Part shown: positions 1 to 44,317 of the stretch, piece by piece
Layout of the letters: each line of letters starts with the position of its first letter
How positions within the stretch are numbered: the first letter of the stretch is position 1
Sequence record: PX907402.1
Source of the DNA: a phage
DNA length: 44,317 nt
Strand: one strand, 5' to 3'
The notes under the pieces: model-generated
Databases searched by the model: none
Told to the model about the DNA's origin: nothing
Seen by the model: only the letters and a program-made list of their open reading frames with translations
Program-made: the position numbers and the translations under genes

Positions 1-110
1 CACCCCTGTCCCGCTTTTAATTTATGCAATGTTGGTGGGTAAATATGCAGTTTTTATAGGTGCGGTATAGAACGGGACAAAACGGGACGTCCCGCCTGTC
101 CCGCTCCGTT
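1..110. repeat. Right half of composite element copy A: GTCCCGC/GCGGGAC iterons (including palindromic cgggacgtcccgcctgtcccgc) and AT-rich tract ttttaatttatgcaatg; continues from window end
   Basis: Direct reading; shares tgtcccgcctgtcccg, tgtcccgcttt and ttatgca blocks with 16376-16500. Confidence 0.6.
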
Positions 111-432
111 ATGCTGGGTTCTGCCGCGCCATTTCATCCAGCGCAACGCGCTCCATTAGCTTAATATCTTTAAACGCACGCTGCGCGTTTTCGATGCCGT
201 GCATCTTAAATAACCATTCCAGTACGCCGTAGTCGATGCCGTATGCGCCGCCGAATCCGGTGCGCCATTGCGTGGAGCAATCTGTGAAGACTGCGACTAC
301 CTTCGCGTTGTCGGGCCACAGCGCAACGGGCGGACACACGTCTTCAGGTGTCGCGCCCCATAAACTCGCGGCTAAATCTTCGGAGGGTGGCGGCGGGCCA
401 TAAAAGCGCCGCGCCGCCTCAATTAGTTTTTT
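109..432 (-). CDS. Tail assembly chaperone T-like segment, probably expressed only as a fusion to the upstream G-like ORF by -1 frameshift
   Basis: Frame is open from 432 to stop at 109 with no good start; overlaps end of ORF 423..785 at a slippery A AAA AAC; sits between major tail and tape measure genes in circular order. Confidence 0.55.
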   Translation of the reverse strand, partial: KKLIEAARRFYGPPPPSEDLAASLWGATPEDVCPPVALWPDNAKVVAVFTDCSTQWRTGFGGAYGIDYGVLEWLFKMHGIENAQRAFKDIKLMERVALDEMARQNPA

Positions 433-785
433 TCACGCAATCCCATCAGTTCGAGATAGTACGACGTATGGAACACGCCGAACGCGCGCGGGTAGTTGAC
501 CACCAGGCGGCGGACGTTCTCCGCGTTAAATTCGTCCGGCAAATTCCAGCCTTCAGCGACGTGCATGATGGCCTCGACCATAACGTTAAATCCTTCCGGG
601 TCATTGTCGTCATACTCCGACAATTTGCGCTCAGTGTCCTGCATGGTCTGCGAAAATTCGTCGATAGGGCGGTGGCGCACGGTAAACGTCATTTTGCCCG
701 GTTCGTTCTCACCAGGGCGCGGGATCTCAATCGGCAGCTTAAAGGTCGGTTTAGGGTCAAGTGTGAAGAGTGGTGATTTAGCCAT
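423..785 (-). CDS. Tail assembly chaperone (lambda G-like)
   Basis: ATG at 785 after GGAG; acidic ~120 aa protein directly downstream of major tail protein gene; ends REKN* on run of 7 A. Confidence 0.6.
   Translation of the reverse strand: MAKSPLFTLDPKPTFKLPIEIPRPGENEPGKMTFTVRHRPIDEFSQTMQDTERKLSEYDDNDPEGFNVMVEAIMHVAEGWNLPDEFNAENVRRLVVNYPRAFGVFHTSYYLELMGLREKN
426..432 (-). other. Putative -1 programmed ribosomal frameshift slippery heptamer A AAA AAC
   Basis: Minus-strand sequence cgt gAA AAA AAC taa at end of G-like ORF; -1 frame continues open for ~105 codons. Confidence 0.5.
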
Positions 786-801
786 TATATAATTCTCCAA
801 T

Positions 802-15625: not shown

Positions 15626-15931
15626 TTATTTCGCAAGCTGGGCGAATAGTTCGCGCTGGGCTTTAATCCGGGCAACGTTTGTCACTGCCGTCTCGCCGAT
15701 CCCGAAGCGATACGCCAGGCGTTCACGGGCAAATGCCATCGCATATTCGCAGATTGCCACGCGCAGCGGTTCCAGTTCGTCCAGGCTGGCAAACATATCG
15801 TCGAACGCGTTCATGATTCCCTGCTGGGCCAGGATGACAACCTGGCGCGCGTCGTCTGCGTTGCCGTTTGTGTGTTTTGCTTCGTACAGCTTCGCCACAG
15901 CCATTGTGTAATTCCAGATAATCGCTTTCAT
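15626..15931 (-). CDS. Hypothetical protein
   Basis: 101 aa ORF, ATGA overlap with upstream small gene. Confidence 0.5.
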   Translation of the reverse strand: MKAIIWNYTMAVAKLYEAKHTNGNADDARQVVILAQQGIMNAFDDMFASLDELEPLRVAICEYAMAFARERLAYRFGIGETAVTNVARIKAQRELFAQLAK

Positions 15932-16107
15932 AGTTCCGTAACCCTCTCAACCAGTTTATACCCTAAACGATAGCTGTCGCCCCAAAGTAGCAGGCCCATA
16001 AATTCATCGATGCTAAACGCTCGCTTGCACACAGTGCGAAGCGCCCCGTTGTGGACTACCGTATCGCCGATCTTGATTTCGCGCTTATTAACCATTTCGG
16101 TTTTCAT
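15928..16107 (-). CDS. Small hypothetical protein (59 aa), first gene of minus-strand unit
   Basis: ATG 16107 after aggaggg RBS, ~20 nt downstream of candidate promoter. Confidence 0.45.
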   Translation of the reverse strand: MKTEMVNKREIKIGDTVVHNGALRTVCKRAFSIDEFMGLLLWGDSYRLGYKLVERVTEL

Positions 16108-16134
16108 GTTCCGCCCTCCTGTTGGTGCGCAACC

Positions 16135-16168
16135 AATATATCAAGGTGCCGGGGTGAATGCAACCAAT
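16135..16168 (-). promoter_or_regulatory. Candidate sigma70-like promoter with ATTGGTTGCAT motif
   Basis: Minus strand TTGCAT (16158-16163), 17 bp spacer, TATATT (16135-16140), then ggttgcgc. Confidence 0.45.
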
Positions 16169-16322
16169 ATTAATCACGCGCATGAAAAAGTTGATCGCTA
16201 TCTGCTGTAACTGCAAACCGCATTTTTCACTTCACATAACACAACTCGCATTGGTTGCCTAGTTCATCAACGACCGCGATTCACATCATGCTGCCGTACA
16301 TTATGCAATCCCGGATTTTATG

Positions 16323-16374
16323 CAGTCTCAGACGAGGGGGGCCACTGACCCCCGTCTAGTCTGAAAGACTGGGG
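16323..16374. repeat. Composite element copy B: conserved GC-rich hairpin
   Basis: 51 of 52 nt identical to 44248-44299; imperfect stem gacgaggggg/cccccgtc plus agtct-gaa-agact. Confidence 0.7.
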
Positions 16375-16375
16375 T

Positions 16376-16500
16376 TTGTCCCGCCTGTCCCGCTCCTCGC
16401 CAGGCCGCGTCATCCGGGGCGGGACAGGGGTGCTGTCCCGCTTTGTCCCGCTCCTTGTTTGTCCCGCTTTTTGTCCCGTTTGTTTTATGCAGTTTTATTG
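16376..16500. repeat. Composite element copy B: GTCCCGC iteron array followed by AT-rich tract
   Basis: At least six TGTCCCGC-like repeats at 10-16 bp spacing plus one inverted GCGGGACA; then ttttatgcagttttattgcataac. Confidence 0.65.
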
Positions 16501-16527
16501 CATAACTATTCATAATAATCACGCCAC

Positions 16528-16635
16528 ACGGCAACCAATGCGACCAGATAAAAACACTCAAAATGGCAACCAATGCGCGCACAAATTAATCGTTTAGCGA
16601 TATGTGGATTCCCATATCGGCAACCAATGCGCGCA
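16528..16635. repeat. Three direct repeats GGCAACCAATGCG(C/A) at about 52 bp spacing
   Basis: Direct reading between primase stop and iteron array. Confidence 0.55.
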
Positions 16636-16639
16636 GAAT

Positions 16640-18904
16640 TTAATCTTTTAAGTCGTCATCGGTTGCAGAAAGCGTGATGGGTATATTCGTTTTTATGACG
16701 ATATTCGACGACCCATAGATGGCTCCGGTGTGCGGATCGGTATAAAAACCGAGTACGCCGCGCTCGACCATATCGTCGATTGCCTTCGTCGATGTGCCAC
16801 CTTTTGCCAATCCTGCCTGGCGGACAATTGCCGATTTACTGAATCCGGTATGGTCCGGGTTATCTTCCATCAGTTTTTCCAGGGCCGCGTAAAGTACCTT
16901 TTCTTTTTCGGTGCGCGGTCCGGCGGTGTTCTCTTCCTTAACTGCGGCTTTTCCTGCGGCCTTCGCCTGTTCTATAGCGAACGGTGCCAGGGCGACCGGT
17001 ACGAGGTACAGAGTCTCGTCGCGTGGCGTGGAGGCAATTGGCTTGACGTCCCAACCGGCAACCACATCGCCGAAGTCCGGCCCGGTGCTGGTGGACTGGT
17101 GGGCTTCGAACGCTTCGGACTTGCGGAGATCCACCTTAACCTTGCACTTGAGCAGGACGAAGCCGCGCGGCGCTTGCTTAATGCCGTTACGTGCCTTCTC
17201 ATGATACAGGTTCAATTGTCCGGGCTGGTTGTCGTCCGGTTGCTCCAGGAAGAACGCGGAATCGACAGCACCATGCAGCGCGCCGGACCCGCGGGGGGAT
17301 CTGCTGCCGTTTGCACCTTTCGCCGGGTGGTGAATGACGCCCGCACTGCCGCCGGTATTTTCCGCGATGGCCTTCAGCGCTTTGACCACTTCACCCATAT
17401 CGCTGGCGTTGTTCTCGTCGAACGGTTTAGCATCGGCGGACCGCAACGCAACAGTCTGGTTGAGTGAGTCGAACGCCACCAGGCCAACCGGTTCGCCGTT
17501 AGCGGTGCGGTTGATGAAGCTGATAACTTCGCGCAAGCCTGATTTGCTGGTGATATCCCAGCCGCGTGACTGCAGATCGATAATGTGCAGCTTGTCGAGG
17601 TCGTGCTCGTATTTGATCTGCAATGCTTCTTTGCGCTGGTTAGAGGCTTCACCACCTTCCGCATCGAAATAGAAGCAATGAGACTGGACGACCTTCGCAC
17701 CGCCGAACGGAATACCGGCGGCAACCGCGCCCATCTGCCCCAGCACATAGAAAGACTTACCAATGTTCGACTCGCCCGCCATATACCAGGTCGATTTGAA
17801 GTTAATCAACCCCTCGATAATCGGGTCGTGCTTACTGAACAGCGCAACCGGCTCGTTATCCAGATCCGCATCGGTGCACACGCCGTATTCTTCGCCGTCG
17901 CCAACCGCATCAACAATATGTTCATATAAGGATTCGACTTCTTCGTCGTCCAGCCCCGGAAGGATGGCGGCGATTTGCTTACGGGACATATTGTGTGGCT
18001 CGACGTTCAGGTGGTCCGGGATCCCGATAAGACGTAGCGCCAGGTGCTGGTGCCTATTCAGTTCCGAGCAACACTCGTTGCCTGTGTGCATACACTTGAA
18101 ACGGATCTCGCCATCCTTGACCATGATAGCCGTCGACCCTTCGCCGCTGTGCAGATGTTCGTTCGGGCACGGCACTTCATAACCACGACCGGACGACAGC
18201 GGTTCGAATCCTGCCTGGAAGCACCAATCCAGAATACCGTCCGCCACGCCGTCATCGCCCTGGGTTAGTTCGCGGCGTACTTCCTCTTTCTCCACTCCCA
18301 GCTTATCAGCCAGGCGAAGCAGACGACGGACGCGGGCACGTTTGCCGTAGTGACACTTAACAACCGATTGCTGGTGTGGCAGGTACATAAGGCGGTTTGT
18401 GTCTTTCGTGCAATCATCGAAGTCCACATCTGACAGGCCCAGTTGGTGTAATAGTGCATACTGTACGCGGCCCAGGTCTTCCGCCGGTACAGGATTATCG
18501 GTGAGCACCAGGAAACGAGCGCAACGCGTGCCGCCTTTCAGCGGGTGGCGGTCGCCGGTTGTGGTGTGGAATACATGTTCCAGTCCCGCGTCGATGAATG
18601 CCTTACGGCAGCGGCGTAAGGTGCGGGTGTCGGTACGGTCAATATCGAAGAACAGGATCGAGCGGTCCACCGCACTGGTCTTACGACGCAATCCGTCACA
18701 GGTATACGCCACGATGCCATCGGCCTTACGCTTGCGGCGCGCATACTCGGCTTTATCTTCCGTCCTGTTGATATGCACCGAGGATATTTCTTTCGCATCA
18801 TTGATAAATTCGAAGAACTCTTCGGTAGTCATCTGGAAGTTTTCCGCCCTGGCTTTTTCGCCTTTTTTAGCGGGTCGTGTTACAGCGAATTTAATTAAGC
18901 TCAT
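16640..18904 (-). CDS. Primase-helicase (prim-pol-like N-terminus, Cys-rich finger, RecA/DnaB-like ATPase)
   Basis: ILFFDIDRTD acidic motif, CPNEHLH...CMHTGNEC cysteine cluster, Walker A GESNIGKS and Walker B LVAFDSL. Confidence 0.75.
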   Translation of the reverse strand: MSLIKFAVTRPAKKGEKARAENFQMTTEEFFEFINDAKEISSVHINRTEDKAEYARRKRKADGIVAYTCDGLRRKTSAVDRSILFFDIDRTDTRTLRRCRKAFIDAGLEHVFHTTTGDRHPLKGGTRCARFLVLTDNPVPAEDLGRVQYALLHQLGLSDVDFDDCTKDTNRLMYLPHQQSVVKCHYGKRARVRRLLRLADKLGVEKEEVRRELTQGDDGVADGILDWCFQAGFEPLSSGRGYEVPCPNEHLHSGEGSTAIMVKDGEIRFKCMHTGNECCSELNRHQHLALRLIGIPDHLNVEPHNMSRKQIAAILPGLDDEEVESLYEHIVDAVGDGEEYGVCTDADLDNEPVALFSKHDPIIEGLINFKSTWYMAGESNIGKSFYVLGQMGAVAAGIPFGGAKVVQSHCFYFDAEGGEASNQRKEALQIKYEHDLDKLHIIDLQSRGWDITSKSGLREVISFINRTANGEPVGLVAFDSLNQTVALRSADAKPFDENNASDMGEVVKALKAIAENTGGSAGVIHHPAKGANGSRSPRGSGALHGAVDSAFFLEQPDDNQPGQLNLYHEKARNGIKQAPRGFVLLKCKVKVDLRKSEAFEAHQSTSTGPDFGDVVAGWDVKPIASTPRDETLYLVPVALAPFAIEQAKAAGKAAVKEENTAGPRTEKEKVLYAALEKLMEDNPDHTGFSKSAIVRQAGLAKGGTSTKAIDDMVERGVLGFYTDPHTGAIYGSSNIVIKTNIPITLSATDDDLKD

Positions 18905-18914
18905 TGCCGTTGCC

Positions 18915-19244
18915 TTACTTTGAAGTTTTATTATTGCGTACCCAGGAGCGCACTGTGCTCTGATTAATTCCGGTCAACTCGGCGATCATTGCCCAGGATT
19001 TGCCCTCGGCGCGCAAACGGATAACCTGTTTTTTGTATTCTTCCATTTCTTCATTGTGTTTTTGCAGCTTGCTTGCTGCCGTGCCGTTGAGCAATTCCAG
19101 CTTCGCGGTAAGCTCCTTCTCAGCACGCGATAATCTGGACACTTCAAATAACACAGCCCCCACGGCATCGGTGTATGCCCATGACCGGCTTGTCTCACTG
19201 CAAACAGTCTTCGTTAACATTTCGATTGCGTCGTTTACATTCAT
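18915..19244 (-). CDS. HTH-domain DNA-binding protein (putative transcriptional regulator)
   Basis: C-terminal KSWAMIAELTGINQSTVRSWV helix-turn-helix-like segment; 109 aa. Confidence 0.45.
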   Translation of the reverse strand: MNVNDAIEMLTKTVCSETSRSWAYTDAVGAVLFEVSRLSRAEKELTAKLELLNGTAASKLQKHNEEMEEYKKQVIRLRAEGKSWAMIAELTGINQSTVRSWVRNNKTSK

Positions 19245-29477: not shown

Positions 29478-29511
29478 ATTGGTTGCATAATCATATTGGT
29501 TGCATTATATT
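29478..29511 (+). promoter_or_regulatory. Candidate promoter with two ATTGGTTGCAT direct repeats
   Basis: Motif copies 29478-29488 and 29495-29505; TTGCAT (29483-29488), 17 bp spacer, TATATT (29506-29511). Confidence 0.5.
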
Positions 29512-30695: not shown

Positions 30696-31162
30696 AACTA
30701 CTGATTTGTGATCTGGATGGCGTTATTAACGGTTCAAGCGACGCGCGTGCCGACCTGGTGCCGGGGATAAAAACGAAATCAACCTTTTGGGCAAAGTGGC
30801 ACAAAGCGCACGTCCGCGAAGACCTGAACATGGATATGCTGCCGCTGCTGCGCATGTACAAAGAGCAAGGCTTCGAGATAGCGTATCTGACAAACCGGCA
30901 GCGCGAATGTTGGGACACCACCGCCGAGCAACTGAAGGTCTTCCCTGTAGGTCGGTTGTTTATGCGCCACATGTTGGACGACACCCCACCGCCTGAGTTT
31001 AAGGCGTGCGCCGTGTTCAAAATGGTCTGCTACGCGGACGTGTCTGAACTTGTCATCATTGAGGACTGCCCGAAGAACATCGCGGCAATTCGTCGGGCGT
31101 GCAGCGATCTGGTCCCGAAAATTTACGCAATTAACGTTGCAAAATTCACTTGCAACCAATAG
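30692..31162 (+). CDS. HAD-superfamily phosphatase / nucleotidase-like
   Basis: N-terminal LICDLDGVI (DxDG motif I); later YLTNR and IIEDC. Confidence 0.55.
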   Translation: MKLLICDLDGVINGSSDARADLVPGIKTKSTFWAKWHKAHVREDLNMDMLPLLRMYKEQGFEIAYLTNRQRECWDTTAEQLKVFPVGRLFMRHMLDDTPPPEFKACAVFKMVCYADVSELVIIEDCPKNIAAIRRACSDLVPKIYAINVAKFTCNQ

Positions 31163-31179
31163 GTTGGTTGCATTATATT
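31150..31179 (+). promoter_or_regulatory. Candidate promoter containing perfect palindrome TGCAACCAAT-AGG-TTGGTTGCA
   Basis: TTGCAA (31150-31155), 18 bp spacer, TATATT (31174-31179). Confidence 0.5.
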
Positions 31180-41536: not shown

Positions 41537-44179
41537 TCATCGTTTGTAAAGTACACCACCCGGTTTCGTCGCCTTCACGATCTCGGACTTCACCGCCTCG
41601 GTGATTTGCTTGCCGAACGCCTGCGCGGTACGGGGGTCCGGCCCGCTGACACTGGTATCCGTTTTACCGGTCCCCGTGTAAACGTTAGTCGTCACGACCA
41701 TACCACCGCCTGCGCCAGACGCAGCAACGCCCAGTTTACCGTCAGGCCCGCGCTTCAGTGGCATGATGGCCTCGGGGCCAGCCTCGCCCATCAATCCCGC
41801 GCCCTTAGCGAACGCCTGGACGCCATAACTGAAAAAGGTAGGCTGGCTTACCACTTTCCCCGAATAGGCCGCGAGATTGCCTCCTGCGTACGCTCCGCCG
41901 TCCGCATTCTTAGTCAGGCCCGAGAAGATAGCGCCGAACAATCCGTTTTTGCCGCCGTCACCACCGAAAGCGCTAACGATAGACTTGAAAGCCTGCGAGG
42001 TAGCCAGCTTGATTAACTCGCTCAGGATGGACTTAACCATATCCTTTGCGTTCAGCTTGCCCGTCTCGAAAAACTCGTTCATCGTGTCTTGCATAGCGCT
42101 GAACGTGAATTTTGTGAGCGACGTCATCTGCGTATATCCGTTACCCATATCATCCACACTATCCTTAAGCCCGCGGCTGAAGCCATCCCATAGCGAGGCG
42201 TTAGCACCGGTCTGTGCTTCCTGCACTTCACGCAGCTTAGACACCGCCTTGTCTATATCGGTATCGTTAGCGCCAACCCGCTTCAGGCGGTCAATTAGCT
42301 GCAATTCTTCACGCAGGTTTGCCGCTTCGCGAGTGGAAAGCGCATAGCCCGCGGCGGTGGCTTTTAGTTCGGCGTTCTGGTTCTTAACGAAGGCATCGAT
42401 CTGCGCGTGCGCCTTAACCTGCTTCTCTTTCGCGTCCAGTAGTTTGGCTTCTTCGACGATCTGCTCGCGCACTTCCTTCACGCGTCCGAATTCGACCATC
42501 TGCTGCTTCTCTGCTGCCGTTAGCGCCCTTTGTTTGCTCGCGGCGATTAACTGCTCATTGTCGGCAATCAGCTTGTTTAAGGCCGCTTGAGCGCGTTGCG
42601 TGCGGGTCTGCGTAGACGCGTTGGCTTCGATCTGCTTGCCGGATTCTCGAAGCTGGGCCAGTTCGCTCCGTGCGACTTCCAGCATTTTCATACCGGCATC
42701 CACGCGAACAGCCGCGGCCTTCTTCGGGGCGGGGTCTTTGTAGCGCTCGTTTACCTGCTTCACCGCCTCCGCAAGCTCTTTCTCGTCAATAACGCCGCGC
42801 TTATTCAGCAAATTGAGGCGGGCGATCTCGTCTGCACGCTTTTTCGCGTTGGTTGCGTACTCCTTCTCGAACGCAGCGCGGTCGCGGGCGGTGCGGTTAG
42901 CCTCCTCGTTCGCCTTTGCGGATTCGTCTGCGGCGCGGGCGTTGTCTCGCTCCGCACGGTTACGCAGGGTGAGCGACGCCACCACTTTTTCCTGGGCGAC
43001 CAGTTCGCTGTAAAGCATGTTAATACGCGCTTTCTGCGCTTCGGTCATAACTCCACCGGCAGCGTTTACCGCTTTCATCTCGGCATAGTAAGCCGTGGTC
43101 ATGCGCTGCAATGATTCACGCGCTTTCATCTCGGACTCATTCGAGGACTGCGCGCGGCCCACATCCAGGATGGCATCCCACATCGATTTAGCTGCCGATG
43201 TGACGACGTTCATCGACCGCTCAAGCGTGCCCATGTTTGACTTGATCTCATTGGTCATGCTGGTGAACGACGCAGCGGCGGTTTTGTTAGCCAACGCAAC
43301 TGCGTCTGTCTCACGACCCGCATCAACCAGCGACTGCACCTGCTGGATCTGCGCTTCGTTTACGACGTGATACTTATCCGCCAGTGCGCGCAAGCCGCCC
43401 ACGGGGTCAGTGGAGAGCTTCGCCACCGCCGCCACCACATCCTCGATCGGCTGGCTGGACACCTTCGCAAAGTCATTAACTACCTTAGCCAATGCGCCGA
43501 AGTCACCACCCGCTTTCACCCCCGCCGCCGCCAGCGCCTGGATTGTGTCACGCGTCTTGCGAAATGACCCGCCCATGCGCTCGGCGTTCTCGGACAGCAC
43601 CAGGATCTGGTTAGCGGTGAGGCCAGAGATATTACCAGACAGCGCCAGCGTCTTATTAAGCGCTGCGACCTGGTTCTCTGCTCGGGACGTAATTGCCACC
43701 CCTACGCCGAGCGTTGCCGTTAATGCAGCGATGCCGATCCCTAACGGGCCGAGTGTGCCAACGACATAACGCAGCGTGTTTCCCAGTCCGCCAAACGCCC
43801 CAGTAAGCTGCGGTAACTGCTGAAGCATAACGCGGTGCACCGGCATACCCATCTCAAGCGTAACCGCGATATCCTGTAACTGGAATGCGGCGTTCCGCGA
43901 TGCGAATCCCAGGTTTTTGGTCGACATGCCTAATCGGCTGGCGAGTCGCTCCTGTTTCGTCATGCCGTCGGCGGCGCGCTGCGATTCAGTCGCTAACTTT
44001 TCCATTCCGCCAGCAGCGTCGCCAGTAACCTTTTTCGACTTGCCAAGTGTGTCGTTTAATTTTTTTACTTTCTGTTCTGTGTTCTCGGATTTCTGCGCAA
44101 ATGTGTCCAGCACAGTATTAGCCGTTTTAATTTGCGCGACGTCCGCCTTGAGCGTGATGCCCGCTGCTTGATCTGCCAT
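41537..44179 (-). CDS. Tail tape measure protein
   Basis: 880 aa, A/K/E-rich coiled-coil, Gly-rich C-terminal segment; between chaperones and tail tip genes. Confidence 0.85.
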   Translation of the reverse strand: MADQAAGITLKADVAQIKTANTVLDTFAQKSENTEQKVKKLNDTLGKSKKVTGDAAGGMEKLATESQRAADGMTKQERLASRLGMSTKNLGFASRNAAFQLQDIAVTLEMGMPVHRVMLQQLPQLTGAFGGLGNTLRYVVGTLGPLGIGIAALTATLGVGVAITSRAENQVAALNKTLALSGNISGLTANQILVLSENAERMGGSFRKTRDTIQALAAAGVKAGGDFGALAKVVNDFAKVSSQPIEDVVAAVAKLSTDPVGGLRALADKYHVVNEAQIQQVQSLVDAGRETDAVALANKTAAASFTSMTNEIKSNMGTLERSMNVVTSAAKSMWDAILDVGRAQSSNESEMKARESLQRMTTAYYAEMKAVNAAGGVMTEAQKARINMLYSELVAQEKVVASLTLRNRAERDNARAADESAKANEEANRTARDRAAFEKEYATNAKKRADEIARLNLLNKRGVIDEKELAEAVKQVNERYKDPAPKKAAAVRVDAGMKMLEVARSELAQLRESGKQIEANASTQTRTQRAQAALNKLIADNEQLIAASKQRALTAAEKQQMVEFGRVKEVREQIVEEAKLLDAKEKQVKAHAQIDAFVKNQNAELKATAAGYALSTREAANLREELQLIDRLKRVGANDTDIDKAVSKLREVQEAQTGANASLWDGFSRGLKDSVDDMGNGYTQMTSLTKFTFSAMQDTMNEFFETGKLNAKDMVKSILSELIKLATSQAFKSIVSAFGGDGGKNGLFGAIFSGLTKNADGGAYAGGNLAAYSGKVVSQPTFFSYGVQAFAKGAGLMGEAGPEAIMPLKRGPDGKLGVAASGAGGGMVVTTNVYTGTGKTDTSVSGPDPRTAQAFGKQITEAVKSEIVKATKPGGVLYKR

Positions 44180-44247
44180 TATGCAGTCCCCCTTTTTATG
44201 CAGTTGCCGTCGGTCATTGTATCAGCGAATTTAAAACAAACCTTATT

Positions 44248-44299
44248 CAGTCTCAGACGAGGGGGGCCATTGACCCCCGTCTAGTCTGAAAGACTGGGG
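44248..44299. repeat. Composite element copy A: conserved GC-rich hairpin
   Basis: 51 of 52 nt identical to 16323-16374. Confidence 0.7.
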
Positions 44300-44317
44300 A
44301 TTGTCCCGCCTGTCCCG
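44300..44317. repeat. Start of copy A iteron array (ttgtcccgcctgtcccg), continues at window start
   Basis: Identical to 16376-16393. Confidence 0.6.

What the first reader, a model, noticed from the sequence alone, without database searches (positions are those of the whole stretch)
16310..16640. Composite iteron/hairpin/AT-rich region downstream of the primase-helicase gene: candidate origin or control hub
About 530 bp of non-coding DNA holds three phased direct repeats GGCAACCAATGCG(C/A) at ~52 bp spacing, an AT-rich tract, at least six TGTCCCGC iterons at 10-16 bp spacing plus an inverted GCGGGACA copy, and a conserved GC-rich hairpin (16323-16374). Phased iterons beside an AT-rich stretch next to the initiator/primase gene is the classic layout of a replication origin. 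The same region feeds the minus-strand promoter at 16135-16168.
Basis: partly seen in the sequence, partly recalled or inferred. Interest (0 to 1): 0.6.

Follow-up and report, generated by a model that had tools for sequence, protein, structure and literature searches.

The report
Likely phage replication origin, plus operators
The non-coding stretch after the primase-helicase gene of this Dhillonvirus phage is real and conserved. It is most likely the phage's replication origin with binding sites for a separate gene regulator around it, but nobody has tested this experimentally.

Summary
The window is a near-complete, circularly permuted Dhillonvirus (SO-1/HK578-like) genome. The 532-bp gap at 16108-16639 is real and well conserved in 15 relatives, and GenBank's SO-1 record already marks it as repeat "region B".

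It is not one iteron array. It holds four kinds of motif:
- **TGTCCCGC/CGGGACA repeats.** These occur almost only here and in a second copy, "region A", at the window ends.
- **A conserved AT-rich 13-mer**, GAATAGTTATGCA/TTATGCA.
- **A roughly 50-nt imperfect hairpin.** Its stems are fixed and its loop varies.
- **GCAACCAAT.** This is a 15-copy motif spread over the genome next to gene starts, so it looks like an operator or promoter element, not an origin iteron.

Relatives whose helicases are 37-49% identical keep the same layout after the gene, but each lineage has its own iteron. The adjacent protein models as AEP primase + zinc motif + RepA-like helicase + C-terminal winged helix.

Best reading (about 0.55): an initiator-linked origin flanked by regulator sites. 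It works like P4, RSF1010, pRN1 or SaPI origins but is a member of none of them. There is no experimental support.

Side finding: the octamer ACGGCARC occurs 56 times and is strand-biased.

The parts
16108..16639 (.). Whole intergenic region, equivalent to 'region B' of the Sodalis phage SO-1 GenBank record
   Evidence: ORF map. The SO-1 annotation lists repeat_region B between the helicase/primase gene and gp49. An alignment of 15 Dhillonvirus genomes has 78% mean column identity, with invariant motif blocks and frame-breaking indels. The two long ORFs inside it (16328-16582 minus, 16376-16597 plus) match no PHROG family.
16377..16479 (+). Lineage-specific iteron array. TGTCCCGC (CGGGACA on the gene-sense strand) at 16377, 16386, 16434, 16444 and 16460; TGTCCCGT at 16472; inverted copy at 16419-16426
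   Evidence: In SO-1, 17 of 20 CGGGACA sites lie in regions A and B. The CGGGACA cores are invariant in 15 relatives.
16323..16371 (.). Conserved imperfect hairpin: outer stem CAGTCT/AGACTG, inner stem AGACG-GGGGG/CCCCC-GTCT
   Evidence: Folds. In 32 copies from 16 genomes the stems are fixed and the loop varies. Four other lineages have an equivalent extended hairpin built from unrelated sequence. There is no T-run after it on either strand and no Rfam match.
16485..16511 (.). AT-rich dyad TTATGCAGT / ATTGCATAA, containing the conserved 13-mer GAATAGTTATGCA (minus strand, 16499-16511). It lies inside the AT-rich tract 16470-16529
   Evidence: The 13-mer is invariant in 14 of 15 Dhillonvirus genomes. 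It is present once or twice, 21 bp apart, in distant relatives L023, L025, L028, FSL SP-031 and AH01.
16301..16326 (+). Two direct TTATGCA(A/G)T copies 17 bp apart, on the other flank of the hairpin
   Evidence: They are less conserved than the 13-mer: many relatives have GAATAAAA or TTGCAAAAT at these places.
16290..16297 (-). ACGGCAGC, one copy of the genome-wide strand-biased octamer, at a position kept in distant relatives
   Evidence: Invariant in 15 relatives. (AC)ACGGCA(G/A)C follows the last TTATGCA in L023, L025, L028, SP-031 and AH01.
16530..16631 (+). Three GGCAACCAATGCG copies (16530, 16565, 16619) just after the helicase stop codon. They are members of the dispersed GCAACCAAT family
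   Evidence: Copy number is 1-3 among relatives because of a 54-bp tandem unit. Their orientation is reversed in L275.
16247..16259 (-). Inverted GGCAACCAATGCG copy
   Evidence: Invariant core.
16129..16168 (-). Promoter-like site for the downstream minus-strand genes: -35 TTGCAT at 16163-16158, 17-nt spacer, -10 TATATT at 16140-16135. Both hexamers overlap GCAACCAAT copies (16129-16137 and 16160-16168)
   Evidence: Read from the sequence; the consensus scan did not list it. Hexamers and motifs are conserved. The same TTGCAT-N17-TATATT built on this motif recurs at 29478-29510.
44180..44317 (.). Region A, left part (the window is opened inside it): TTATGCAGT at 44179 and 44196, ACGGCAAC (minus strand) at 44203, hairpin at 44248-44296, TGTCCCGC at 44302 and 44311
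   Evidence: 76 of 79 core bases identical to region B. SO-1 annotates region A between tail chaperone gp16 and the tape-measure gene. Every Dhillonvirus contig in IMG/VR carries two copies.
1..108 (.). Region A, right part: TGTCCCGC at 7 and 97, degenerate or inverted copies at 72, 82 and 88, TTATGCAAT at 22. It ends at the stop codon of the tail chaperone frameshift product (109)
16640..18904 (-). 754-aa replication protein. Residues about 1-205 are an AEP-type primase, a Cys/His zinc motif lies at 246-287, a RepA-like AAA_25 helicase at 357-531, and a winged helix at about 660-740 (nt 16685-16927)
   Evidence: Pfam AAA_25, E = 2.5e-19. PHROG replicative helicase-primase. N-terminal model has pLDDT 85 and its best fold match is the cyanophage S-2L PrimPol AEP domain (E = 1.7e-5, probability 1.0). 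The C-terminal model has pLDDT 80-90 in the winged-helix part, and its best matches are all winged-helix proteins at weak E-values of 0.06-0.4. Invariant C246, H252, C271, H273, C279, H285 and H287.

Best explanation
The core of the gap (about 16290-16512) is a cis-acting replication element. It is most likely the origin used by the primase-helicase encoded just upstream.

Inferred steps (none is shown):
1. The C-terminal winged helix of the 754-aa protein binds the CGGGACA/TGTCCCGC repeats.
2. The adjacent AT-rich GAATAGTTATGCA/TTATGCA segment melts.
3. The conserved imperfect palindrome forms a hairpin in single-stranded DNA and helps to load the RepA-like helicase or to position the AEP primase.
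4. Priming starts nearby, possibly at the conserved ACGGCAGC.

Around this core lie GCAACCAAT sites. Three follow the helicase stop codon, one is at 16247 and two overlap the promoter at 16135-16163. They belong to a separate genome-wide set of operator or promoter elements, bound by a regulator that I could not identify. That regulator controls the downstream genes and may couple transcription to the origin.

Region A, between the tail chaperone and tape-measure genes, is a second copy of the core. It could be a second origin or a replication enhancer of the kind P4 has in crr.
For: Shown by tool results:
- The CGGGACA repeats are confined to regions A and B: 9 of 11 exact copies in the window and 17 of 20 in SO-1.
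- The same order of elements follows the homologous gene in relatives whose helicases are 37-49% identical to the window's: helicase stop, AT-rich 13-mer, short repeats in both orientations, hairpin, TTATGCA, ACGGCARC, promoter. Each lineage has its own repeat: TCCGACA (L023), CGGACAA (AH01), AGGGATAA (L025), GGGGATGAA (L028), GGGGAGA (FSL SP-031), ACTCGCAA (L276) and GGGGATCA (L277).
- L275, with a 69%-identical helicase, keeps both CGGGACA and the same recognition-helix start, GGT(S/N)T. The start of that helix differs in every lineage that has a different repeat.
- The C-terminal 155 residues diverge more than the protein as a whole: 33-40% against 44-49% identity.
- Domain folds are AEP primase, RepA-like helicase and winged helix.
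- Hairpin stems are invariant and the loop varies in 32 copies. Five lineages keep the hairpin architecture with unrelated sequences.
- The hairpin is not an intrinsic terminator, matches no Rfam family, and the two long ORFs in the core match no PHROG family.

Published precedents:
- In pRN1 a stem-loop 3' of the AEP-helicase-winged-helix rep gene is required for replication and is proposed as the origin. The same paper describes P4 alpha binding its ori repeats through a winged helix, and RSF1010 with RepC iterons, RepA helicase and ssi stem-loops primed by RepB' (PMC4234260).
- SaPI and P4 initiators combine helicase and primase activities (PMC7145576).
Against: - There is no experimental evidence for this phage group. 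Six literature searches found nothing on origins in Dhillonvirus or Guernseyvirinae.
- The winged-helix fold matches are weak (E = 0.06-0.4), and a fold does not show what the domain binds.
- Iteron spacing is irregular: 9, 10, 12, 16 and 48 bp.
- GC skew follows gene direction and gives no origin signal.
- The strand-biased octamer does not change strand at region B.
- A second copy in the middle of the tail operon is an odd place for an origin.
- Relatives L019, L021, L024 and L026 have a terminator and convergent genes after the helicase instead.
- In L027 the only repeat after the helicase is GCAACCAAC. The split between 'iteron' and 'operator' motifs may therefore not hold everywhere.
- The whole genome has no DnaA box. 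This is not fatal for an origin that has its own initiator.
Confidence: 0.55

Rival explanations
1. The region is only a transcription control hub. On this view the TGTCCCGC repeats bind a phage transcription factor, such as a middle or late activator or repressor. The hairpin acts in RNA as a processing, stabilising or attenuating site. Regions A and B set expression of the lysis genes and the tape-measure/tail genes, and replication starts elsewhere or without a fixed origin.
For: - Both regions lie inside one long co-directional transcription unit, just upstream of gene blocks.
- The gap contains a promoter-like site and six copies of a motif that otherwise sits next to gene starts.
- The gene just upstream of the helicase gene encodes a 109-aa HTH protein with a sigma-70 region-4-like fold.
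- Region A sits where tail-protein stoichiometry could be tuned.
Against: - The repeats occur only at two loci, not at the many promoters.
- The hairpin has no terminator tail and no Rfam match.
- In L023 the strand antisense to transcription folds much better (-31.9 against -21.4 kcal/mol). That fits DNA rather than mRNA.
- The module stays linked to the primase-helicase gene across subfamilies even though the small HTH gene next to it is replaced: a 109-aa sigma-r4-like protein in Dhillonvirus and an XRE/HTH_3 type in the others.
- Cornellvirus FSL SP-031 has no region A: its GGGGAGA repeats occur only after the helicase gene. In AH01 I saw the repeats only there too, but did not count its CGGACAA repeat across the genome.
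Confidence: 0.22
2. The region is a packaging (pac) or other DNA-handling site, for example a target for terminase small-subunit binding, recombination or genome condensation. Repeat arrays next to AT-rich DNA are also typical of pac sites such as that of P1.
For: - Short repeats occur in both orientations beside AT-rich DNA.
- These phages package by the headful mechanism, and their pac site is unmapped (PMC9022532).
- The window's sequence was opened inside region A.
Against: - There are two copies 16 kb apart, and both are far from the terminase genes (about 10.7-11.3 kb in the window).
- The conserved linkage is to the primase-helicase gene, not to terS.
- The break in region A is most simply an assembly break at a repeat.
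- Other GenBank records of the genus start at terS or at arbitrary points.
Confidence: 0.08
3. The region is a non-functional or selfish repeat, a MITE-like insertion or recombination scar that was copied to two places and tolerated.
For: - Two near-identical cores lie within different flanks.
- Region A varies in size and content among relatives: SO-1 has 384 bp, and L268 carries an inserted reverse-strand gene.
Against: - The architecture persists at the same place across subfamilies while the sequences turn over.
- The motif cores and hairpin stems are invariant while the loop and spacers vary.
- There are no terminal inverted repeats or target-site duplications around the core.
Confidence: 0.05

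Closest known systems
Satellite phage P4: alpha protein with ori and crr
   Same: One protein combines primase, helicase and a C-terminal winged helix that binds short repeats at the origin (PMC4234260). From my own recollection, not checked here: P4 also needs a second cis site with the same repeats, crr, some kilobases away. Here too there is a primase-helicase-winged-helix fusion and two repeat clusters, regions A and B.
   Different: P4's primase is of the Toprim type (PMC4234260). From my own recollection its helicase is superfamily 3. Here the primase has an AEP fold and the helicase is RepA-like AAA_25. There is no sequence match to any solved structure. Binding of the repeats is not shown.
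Plasmid RSF1010 oriV with RepC, RepA and RepB'
   Same: Iterons next to AT-rich DNA, a RepA-type helicase, and stem-loops (ssiA and ssiB) that a dedicated primase recognises in single-stranded DNA (PMC4234260). The phage region has the same three kinds of DNA element, and its helicase belongs to a RepA-like family.
   Different: RSF1010 uses three separate proteins and two ssi hairpins, which I recall lie on opposite strands. Here everything is fused in one protein, there is one imperfect palindrome per region, and the two regions have the same orientation.
Archaeal plasmid pRN1: ORF904 and its downstream stem-loop origin
   Same: AEP primase-polymerase + helicase + C-terminal winged helix. 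In pRN1 a stem-loop immediately 3' of the rep gene is required for replication and is proposed as the origin. The authors note the same arrangement in some phages (PMC4234260).
   Different: ORF904 has a superfamily 3 helicase and a 100-nt stem-loop without iterons. Here the helicase is RepA-like, the hairpin is about 50 nt and it is flanked by iterons.
Staphylococcal pathogenicity island (SaPI) pri-rep-ori modules
   Same: The initiators have helicase activity and are accompanied by primases (PMC7145576). From my own recollection, not checked here: the SaPI origin lies just 3' of rep, consists of island-specific short repeats flanking AT-rich DNA, and specificity co-varies with the Rep C-terminus.
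   Different: A different host group and different protein families. In SaPIs the primase and helicase are separate proteins. No conserved hairpin or second copy is known to me.
Repeat regions A and B annotated in Sodalis phage SO-1 (GenBank GQ502199)
   Same: These are the same two loci. The depositors described them as direct, inverted and palindromic repeats with mutual similarity and a 'possible ...' function.
   Different: The motif classes, their genome-wide distribution, the conservation outside the genus and the protein domains are worked out here.

Membership tests
P4 alpha-type origin system | Toprim (bacterial-type) primase domain | tested here: not met
   The N-terminal model's best match is an AEP PrimPol domain (S-2L, E = 1.7e-5), followed by Prim-PolC, the LigD polymerase domain and HSV primase. 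No Toprim family in Pfam.
P4 alpha-type origin system | Superfamily 3 (D5-like) helicase domain | tested here: not met
   The only Pfam hit is AAA_25, the RepA-like RecA fold, at residues 357-531.
P4 alpha-type origin system | C-terminal winged helix that binds the origin repeats | tested here: inconclusive
   A winged-helix fold is predicted (pLDDT 80-90), and all top matches are winged-helix proteins at E = 0.06-0.4. Binding cannot be tested with these tools.
P4 alpha-type origin system | The same repeats at the origin and at a second, distant cis site (crr) | tested here: met
   TGTCCCGC clusters occur at 16377-16479 and at 44302-44317 joined to 1-104. This is met at sequence level only.
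RSF1010-type oriV | RepA-family hexameric helicase | tested here: met
   AAA_25, E = 2.5e-19. Sources name homologues 'helicase RepA family protein'.
RSF1010-type oriV | A separate iteron-binding initiator (RepC) and a separate primase (RepB') | tested here: not met
   Primase, helicase and winged helix are in a single 754-aa ORF.
RSF1010-type oriV | Two ssi hairpins on opposite strands next to the iterons and AT-rich DNA | tested here: not met
   There is one imperfect palindrome per region, and regions A and B have the same orientation.
pRN1 ORF904-type replicon | AEP primase-polymerase domain | tested here: met
   Fold match to the S-2L PrimPol AEP domain with probability 1.0. Invariant D87/D89 and near-invariant H120.
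pRN1 ORF904-type replicon | Superfamily 3 helicase | tested here: not met
   The helicase is AAA_25, RepA-like.
pRN1 ORF904-type replicon | Stem-loop immediately 3' of the rep gene that serves as the origin | tested here: inconclusive
   A conserved hairpin lies about 270 nt after the stop codon, with an equivalent in four other lineages. Its function is not testable here.
Intrinsic (Rho-independent) terminator | GC-rich stem-loop followed by a T/U run | tested here: not met
   The scan lists no terminator at 16323-16371 on either strand. Neither the sequence nor the distant homologues have a T-run.
DnaA-dependent origin | DnaA boxes (TTWTNCACA) | tested here: not met
   0 matches in the whole window against 2.5 expected.
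Known structured RNA (Rfam) | A match to a curated covariance model | tested here: not met
   The only hit is a chance-level miRNA match: 22 bits against a gathering score of 74.

The most novel reading that the evidence does not exclude
The conserved ACGGCAGC in the origin core may be the first of 56 genome-wide ACGGCARC sites that the phage's AEP primase-helicase uses as sequence-specific primer start sites. Alternatively they may act as another polarity signal, like Chi. The sites average one per 0.8 kb, and 80% lie on one strand. On this reading the origin fires a mainly one-directional fork. The octamer would mark the lagging-strand template in Dhillonvirus and in at least two Guernseyvirinae phages (a Cornellvirus and Pantoea phage AH01).
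Probability: 0.2. Interest if true: 0.8.

Novelty: new variant of a known kind. Interest (0 to 1): 0.5.

Why it matters
Dhillonvirus and Guernseyvirinae phages are common E. coli and Salmonella phages, are used in therapy collections and are little studied. Nobody has located their origin of replication.

This analysis gives a defined candidate origin, a candidate initiator domain and a natural series of swapped specificities. Eight lineages were examined and each has its own repeat. The idea can therefore be tested directly by binding assays, domain swaps and origin-test plasmids.

It would also be an example of an AEP primase fused to a RepA-type helicase and a winged helix, acting on an origin that combines iterons with a hairpin. 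That arrangement joins features otherwise split between P4, RSF1010 and pRN1.

For annotators it separates two motif classes that look alike by eye: origin repeats and regulator sites.

Tried and rejected
- **Intrinsic terminator.** Rejected for the hairpin: there is no T-run on either strand, in this phage or in the distant relatives.
- **Known RNA family.** None matched.
- **DnaA-dependent origin.** There is no DnaA box anywhere in the genome.
- **GC skew as an origin locator.** Not informative, because it simply follows gene direction.
- **Hidden protein-coding gene in the gap.** The 84-aa and 73-aa ORFs have no PHROG match, and relatives carry frame-breaking indels.
- **Sequence search of the helicase against solved structures.** No hit.
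- **Database scan for TGAATAGTTATGCA.** Too unspecific: 120 or more chance hits.
- **Search for a second copy of L025's hairpin.** Found only the known copy.
- **Tape-measure-based search for region A in distant relatives.** It returned unrelated phages. The major-tail-protein search worked better.
- **Linking the 109-aa HTH protein to GCAACCAAT through L027.** This failed. L027 has the related motif GCAACCAAC but no homologue of that protein in the 3 kb upstream of its helicase gene. The binder of GCAACCAAT stays unknown.
- **Literature.** Six literature searches, plus term searches inside three of the papers, found nothing on origins or these repeats in Dhillonvirus or Guernseyvirinae.
Full report
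**What the window is.**
- The 801 bases around the finding match 239 phage records at 60-95% identity. Almost all are Escherichia or Shigella phages of the genus Dhillonvirus, such as SO-1, HK578 and JL1.
- The window's length (44.3 kb) and gene order match those genomes.
- The genus packages by the headful mechanism and its assemblies close into circles (PMC9022532).
- The window was opened inside a repeat. Its last 138 and first 108 bases together form a second copy of part of the region under study.

**The observation.**
- The primase-helicase gene (16640-18904) and the next gene (15928-16107) are both on the minus strand and are separated by 532 bp.
- The TGTCCCGC cluster is far beyond chance. 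There are 11 exact copies in the window against 2.1 expected, and 9 of them lie in this region or its duplicate. Seven copies, allowing one mismatch, fall within 103 bp.
- Three details need correcting. The GGCAACCAATGCG copies are 35 and 54 bp apart, not about 52. Iteron spacing is irregular (9-48 bp). The element extends left of 16310, down to the promoter at 16135-16163.

**The gap holds four motif classes, not one.**

1. *CGGGACA (TGTCCCGC on the plus strand).* It is practically restricted to two loci. In SO-1, 17 of 20 copies lie in the annotated regions A and B.
2. *TTATGCA(A/G)T.* It occurs 8 times against 0.64 expected, and 7 of the 8 are in the two regions. One copy is part of the 13-mer GAATAGTTATGCA in the AT-rich tract, where GC falls to 33%.
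3. *A roughly 50-nt imperfect hairpin at 16323-16371.*
4. *GCAACCAAT.* It occurs 15 times in the window against 0.5 expected, spread over nine loci.

**GCAACCAAT looks like a regulator site.**
- In SO-1 nearly every copy lies 10-150 nt upstream of a gene start, in either orientation.
- At 31152 two copies form a palindrome.
- At 16135-16163 and 29478-29510 the motif supplies the hexamers of a TTGCAT-N17-TATATT promoter-like site.
- This is the pattern of an operator or promoter element for a DNA-binding regulator, not of origin iterons.
- The three copies after the helicase stop codon vary from one to three among 15 relatives because a 54-bp unit is tandemly duplicated. In L275 they point the other way.

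**Conservation within the genus.**
- An alignment of 15 region-B sequences has 78% mean column identity. The invariant blocks are CGCATTGGTTGCC, TGAATAGTTATGCA, six CGGGACA cores, both hairpin arms, ACGGCAGC, GGCAACCAATGC and the promoter.
- One- and two-base indels rule out a conserved reading frame, and the two long ORFs inside the gap (84 and 73 aa) match no PHROG family.
- A search for 19 bases of the hairpin found exactly two copies in almost every Dhillonvirus contig of IMG/VR. Across 32 copies the arms are constant while the 7-nt loop varies.
- The SO-1 GenBank record of 2009 already marks the two loci as repeat regions A and B with a "possible ..." function.

**Conservation outside the genus.** This is the most informative result.
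- Homologues of the protein at 37-49% identity occur in Guernseyvirinae (Cornellvirus FSL SP-031, Pantoea phage AH01) and in uncultivated phages.
- In seven such lineages the DNA after the gene has the same order of elements: one or two GAATAGTTATGCA units, short repeats in direct and inverted orientation, an extended hairpin, TTATGCA, (AC)ACGGCA(G/A)C, and then a promoter and the next gene.
- The short repeat differs in each lineage:
  - TCCGACA in L023
  - CGGACAA in AH01
  - AGGGATAA in L025
  - GGGGATGAA in L028
  - GGGGAGA in FSL SP-031
  - ACTCGCAA in L276
  - GGGGATCA in L277
- In FSL SP-031 the repeat occurs nine times, and only there in the genome.
- The hairpins share no sequence between lineages yet fold into the same extended shape. 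In L023 the strand antisense to transcription is much more stable (-31.9 against -21.4 kcal/mol). That fits a structure formed in DNA rather than in the mRNA.
- Not every relative has the module. L019, L021, L024 and L026 have a terminator and convergent genes instead. L027 has GCAACCAAC repeats and TTATGCA but no GGGACA-like repeat.
- Region A is specific to Dhillonvirus. FSL SP-031 has a single cluster. A more distant siphovirus (L272) has no gap between the tail chaperone and tape-measure genes.

**The protein.**
- Pfam finds only a RepA-like AAA_25 domain at residues 357-531. PHROGs calls the protein a replicative helicase-primase.
- A model of residues 1-345 (pLDDT 85) best matches the AEP domain of cyanophage S-2L PrimPol (E = 1.7e-5, probability 1.0), followed by other AEP enzymes.
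- An invariant Cys/His cluster at 246-287 looks like a zinc motif.
- A model of the last 155 residues has pLDDT 80-90 over residues about 660-740, with helix-helix-helix-strand-strand topology. All its top matches are winged-helix DNA-binding proteins, including plasmid Rep initiators, but the E-values are weak at 0.06-0.4.
- This C-terminal part diverges more than the rest: 33-40% against 44-49% identity.
- The residues at the start of the predicted recognition helix differ in each lineage with a different repeat. They are kept (GGT-S/N-T) in L275, which has the same CGGGACA repeat. This is consistent with co-evolution of domain and repeat, but the sample is small.

**Mechanism.** The following steps are inferred, not shown.
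1. The winged helix binds the CGGGACA repeats.
2. The AT-rich 13-mer segment opens.
3. The palindrome forms a hairpin and serves for helicase loading or primase positioning.
4. Synthesis starts nearby.

Each element has a published counterpart:
- P4 alpha binds its origin repeats through a winged helix.
- RSF1010 uses RepC-bound iterons, the RepA helicase and ssi stem-loops primed by RepB'.
- In pRN1 a stem-loop 3' of the gene for an AEP-helicase-winged-helix protein is required for replication and is proposed as the origin (all from PMC4234260).
- SaPI and P4 initiators combine helicase and primase activities (PMC7145576).

The system here works like these but belongs to none of them. The primase is AEP rather than Toprim, the helicase is RepA-like rather than superfamily 3, and the functions are fused rather than split among three proteins.

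**Rivals.**
- *Purely transcriptional role for the repeats and hairpin.* This cannot be excluded. Both regions lie in a long co-directional transcription unit, and the gap contains a promoter-like site and regulator sites. Against it: the repeats occur only at two loci, the hairpin is not a terminator and matches no RNA family, and the module follows the primase-helicase gene even where the neighbouring small HTH gene is replaced.
- *Packaging site.* Unlikely, given two copies far from the terminase genes.
- *Neutral selfish repeat.* This does not fit the pattern of fixed cores with variable loops and spacers.

**Weaknesses.**
- There is no experiment.
- The fold evidence for DNA binding is weak.
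- Repeat spacing is irregular.
- GC skew gives no origin signal.
- A second copy inside the tail operon is unexplained.
- The L027 lineage blurs the division between iterons and operators.

**Side observation.**
- ACGGCAGC occurs 30 times in the window against 2.0 expected, with 25 copies on the minus strand. With ACGGCAAC the family has 56 sites, 45 of them on the minus strand, and it tops the list of over-represented 8-mers.
- It is also the top 8-mer in FSL SP-031 (33 sites) and in AH01 (59 sites).
- Sites on the sense strand fall in all three codon frames (15, 19 and 5).
- Between the window and SO-1 the motif positions differ at 1.9% against 6.9% in the flanks. The signal therefore acts on the DNA or RNA sequence itself.
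- The strand bias is strong in the long helicase-lysis-structural block (36 to 6) and absent in the opposite block.
- One copy sits at a conserved place in the origin core. It could be a primer start site or a Chi-like polarity signal. I could not decide between these.

**Verdict.** The element is a new variant of a known kind of initiator-linked origin. It is already flagged as a repeat region in one GenBank record and has not been tested.

Noticed in passing
whole window; e.g. 1504, 1935, 5125, 16290, 17303, 33238, 42513 (minus strand): The octamer family ACGGCARC has 56 sites, 45 of them on the minus strand. ACGGCAGC alone has 30 sites against 2.0 expected. It is the most over-represented 8-mer here and also in Salmonella phage FSL SP-031 and Pantoea phage AH01. 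Sites fall in all three codon frames and change 3.6 times more slowly than their flanks between the window and SO-1. The strand bias is strong only in the helicase-lysis-structural gene block.
   Followed up: partly
window 5684, 5698, 15420, 19435, 26536, 29478, 29495, 31152, 34035 (plus six copies in 16129-16628): GCAACCAAT occurs 15 times in the window against 0.5 expected, mostly 10-150 nt upstream of gene starts and in both orientations. At 31152-31171 two copies form a palindrome, and at 29478-29510 the motif forms a TTGCAT-N17-TATATT promoter-like site. It is probably the operator of an unidentified phage regulator.
   Followed up: partly
window 1-108 and 44180-44317: The sequence was opened inside repeat region A, so the window's two ends join into one 246-bp intergenic element between the tail chaperone and tape-measure genes. 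The break is probably an assembly break at a repeat.
   Followed up: yes
window 16565-16639; alignment A3 columns 1-80: A 54-bp unit at the 3' end of the helicase gene, containing one GGCAACCAATGCG copy, is tandemly duplicated in some Dhillonvirus genomes and not in others. The result is one to three copies.
   Followed up: yes
whole window: The E. coli Chi sequence GCTGGTGG occurs six times, five of them on the minus strand. This is the same polarity as the ACGGCARC family.
   Followed up: no
whole window: There is not one DnaA box (TTWTNCACA) on either strand of the 44-kb genome, against 2.5 expected.
   Followed up: no
window 16088-16216 (minus) and 16183-16239 (plus): A 42-aa ORF overlapping the promoter matches PHROG 23498 (unknown function, 37 aa), which is probably an annotation artefact of conserved DNA. 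An 18-codon plus-strand ORF (MKKLIAICCNCKPHFSLHI) lies in a very conserved stretch, but its residues vary among relatives.
   Followed up: partly
window 423-800 and 109-436 (minus): The tail assembly chaperone pair shows a run of seven A (GAAAAAAAC on the minus strand, about 430-438) at the junction of the two frames. This is the usual G/GT frameshift arrangement, and it ends exactly where region A begins.
   Followed up: no
L268 4460-5290; L271 4440-5338: In two more distant relatives the gap between the tail chaperone and tape-measure genes also holds a reverse-strand inserted gene. In L271, which is the same contig as L027, it ends with a cluster of GCAACCAAC/GCAACCAAT motifs rather than GGGACA repeats.
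   Followed up: partly
window 18915-19244 (minus): The 109-aa protein encoded just upstream of the primase-helicase gene has a C-terminal HTH resembling sigma-70 region 4 (E = 7e-7). GenBank records annotate it variously as 'transposase' or 'nuclease inhibitor gamma'. No homologue was found upstream of the helicase gene in the ten distant relatives L019-L028. In the Guernseyvirinae genomes FSL SP-031 and AH01, and in contigs L276 and L277, an XRE/HTH_3-type regulator occupies the same position.
   Followed up: partly
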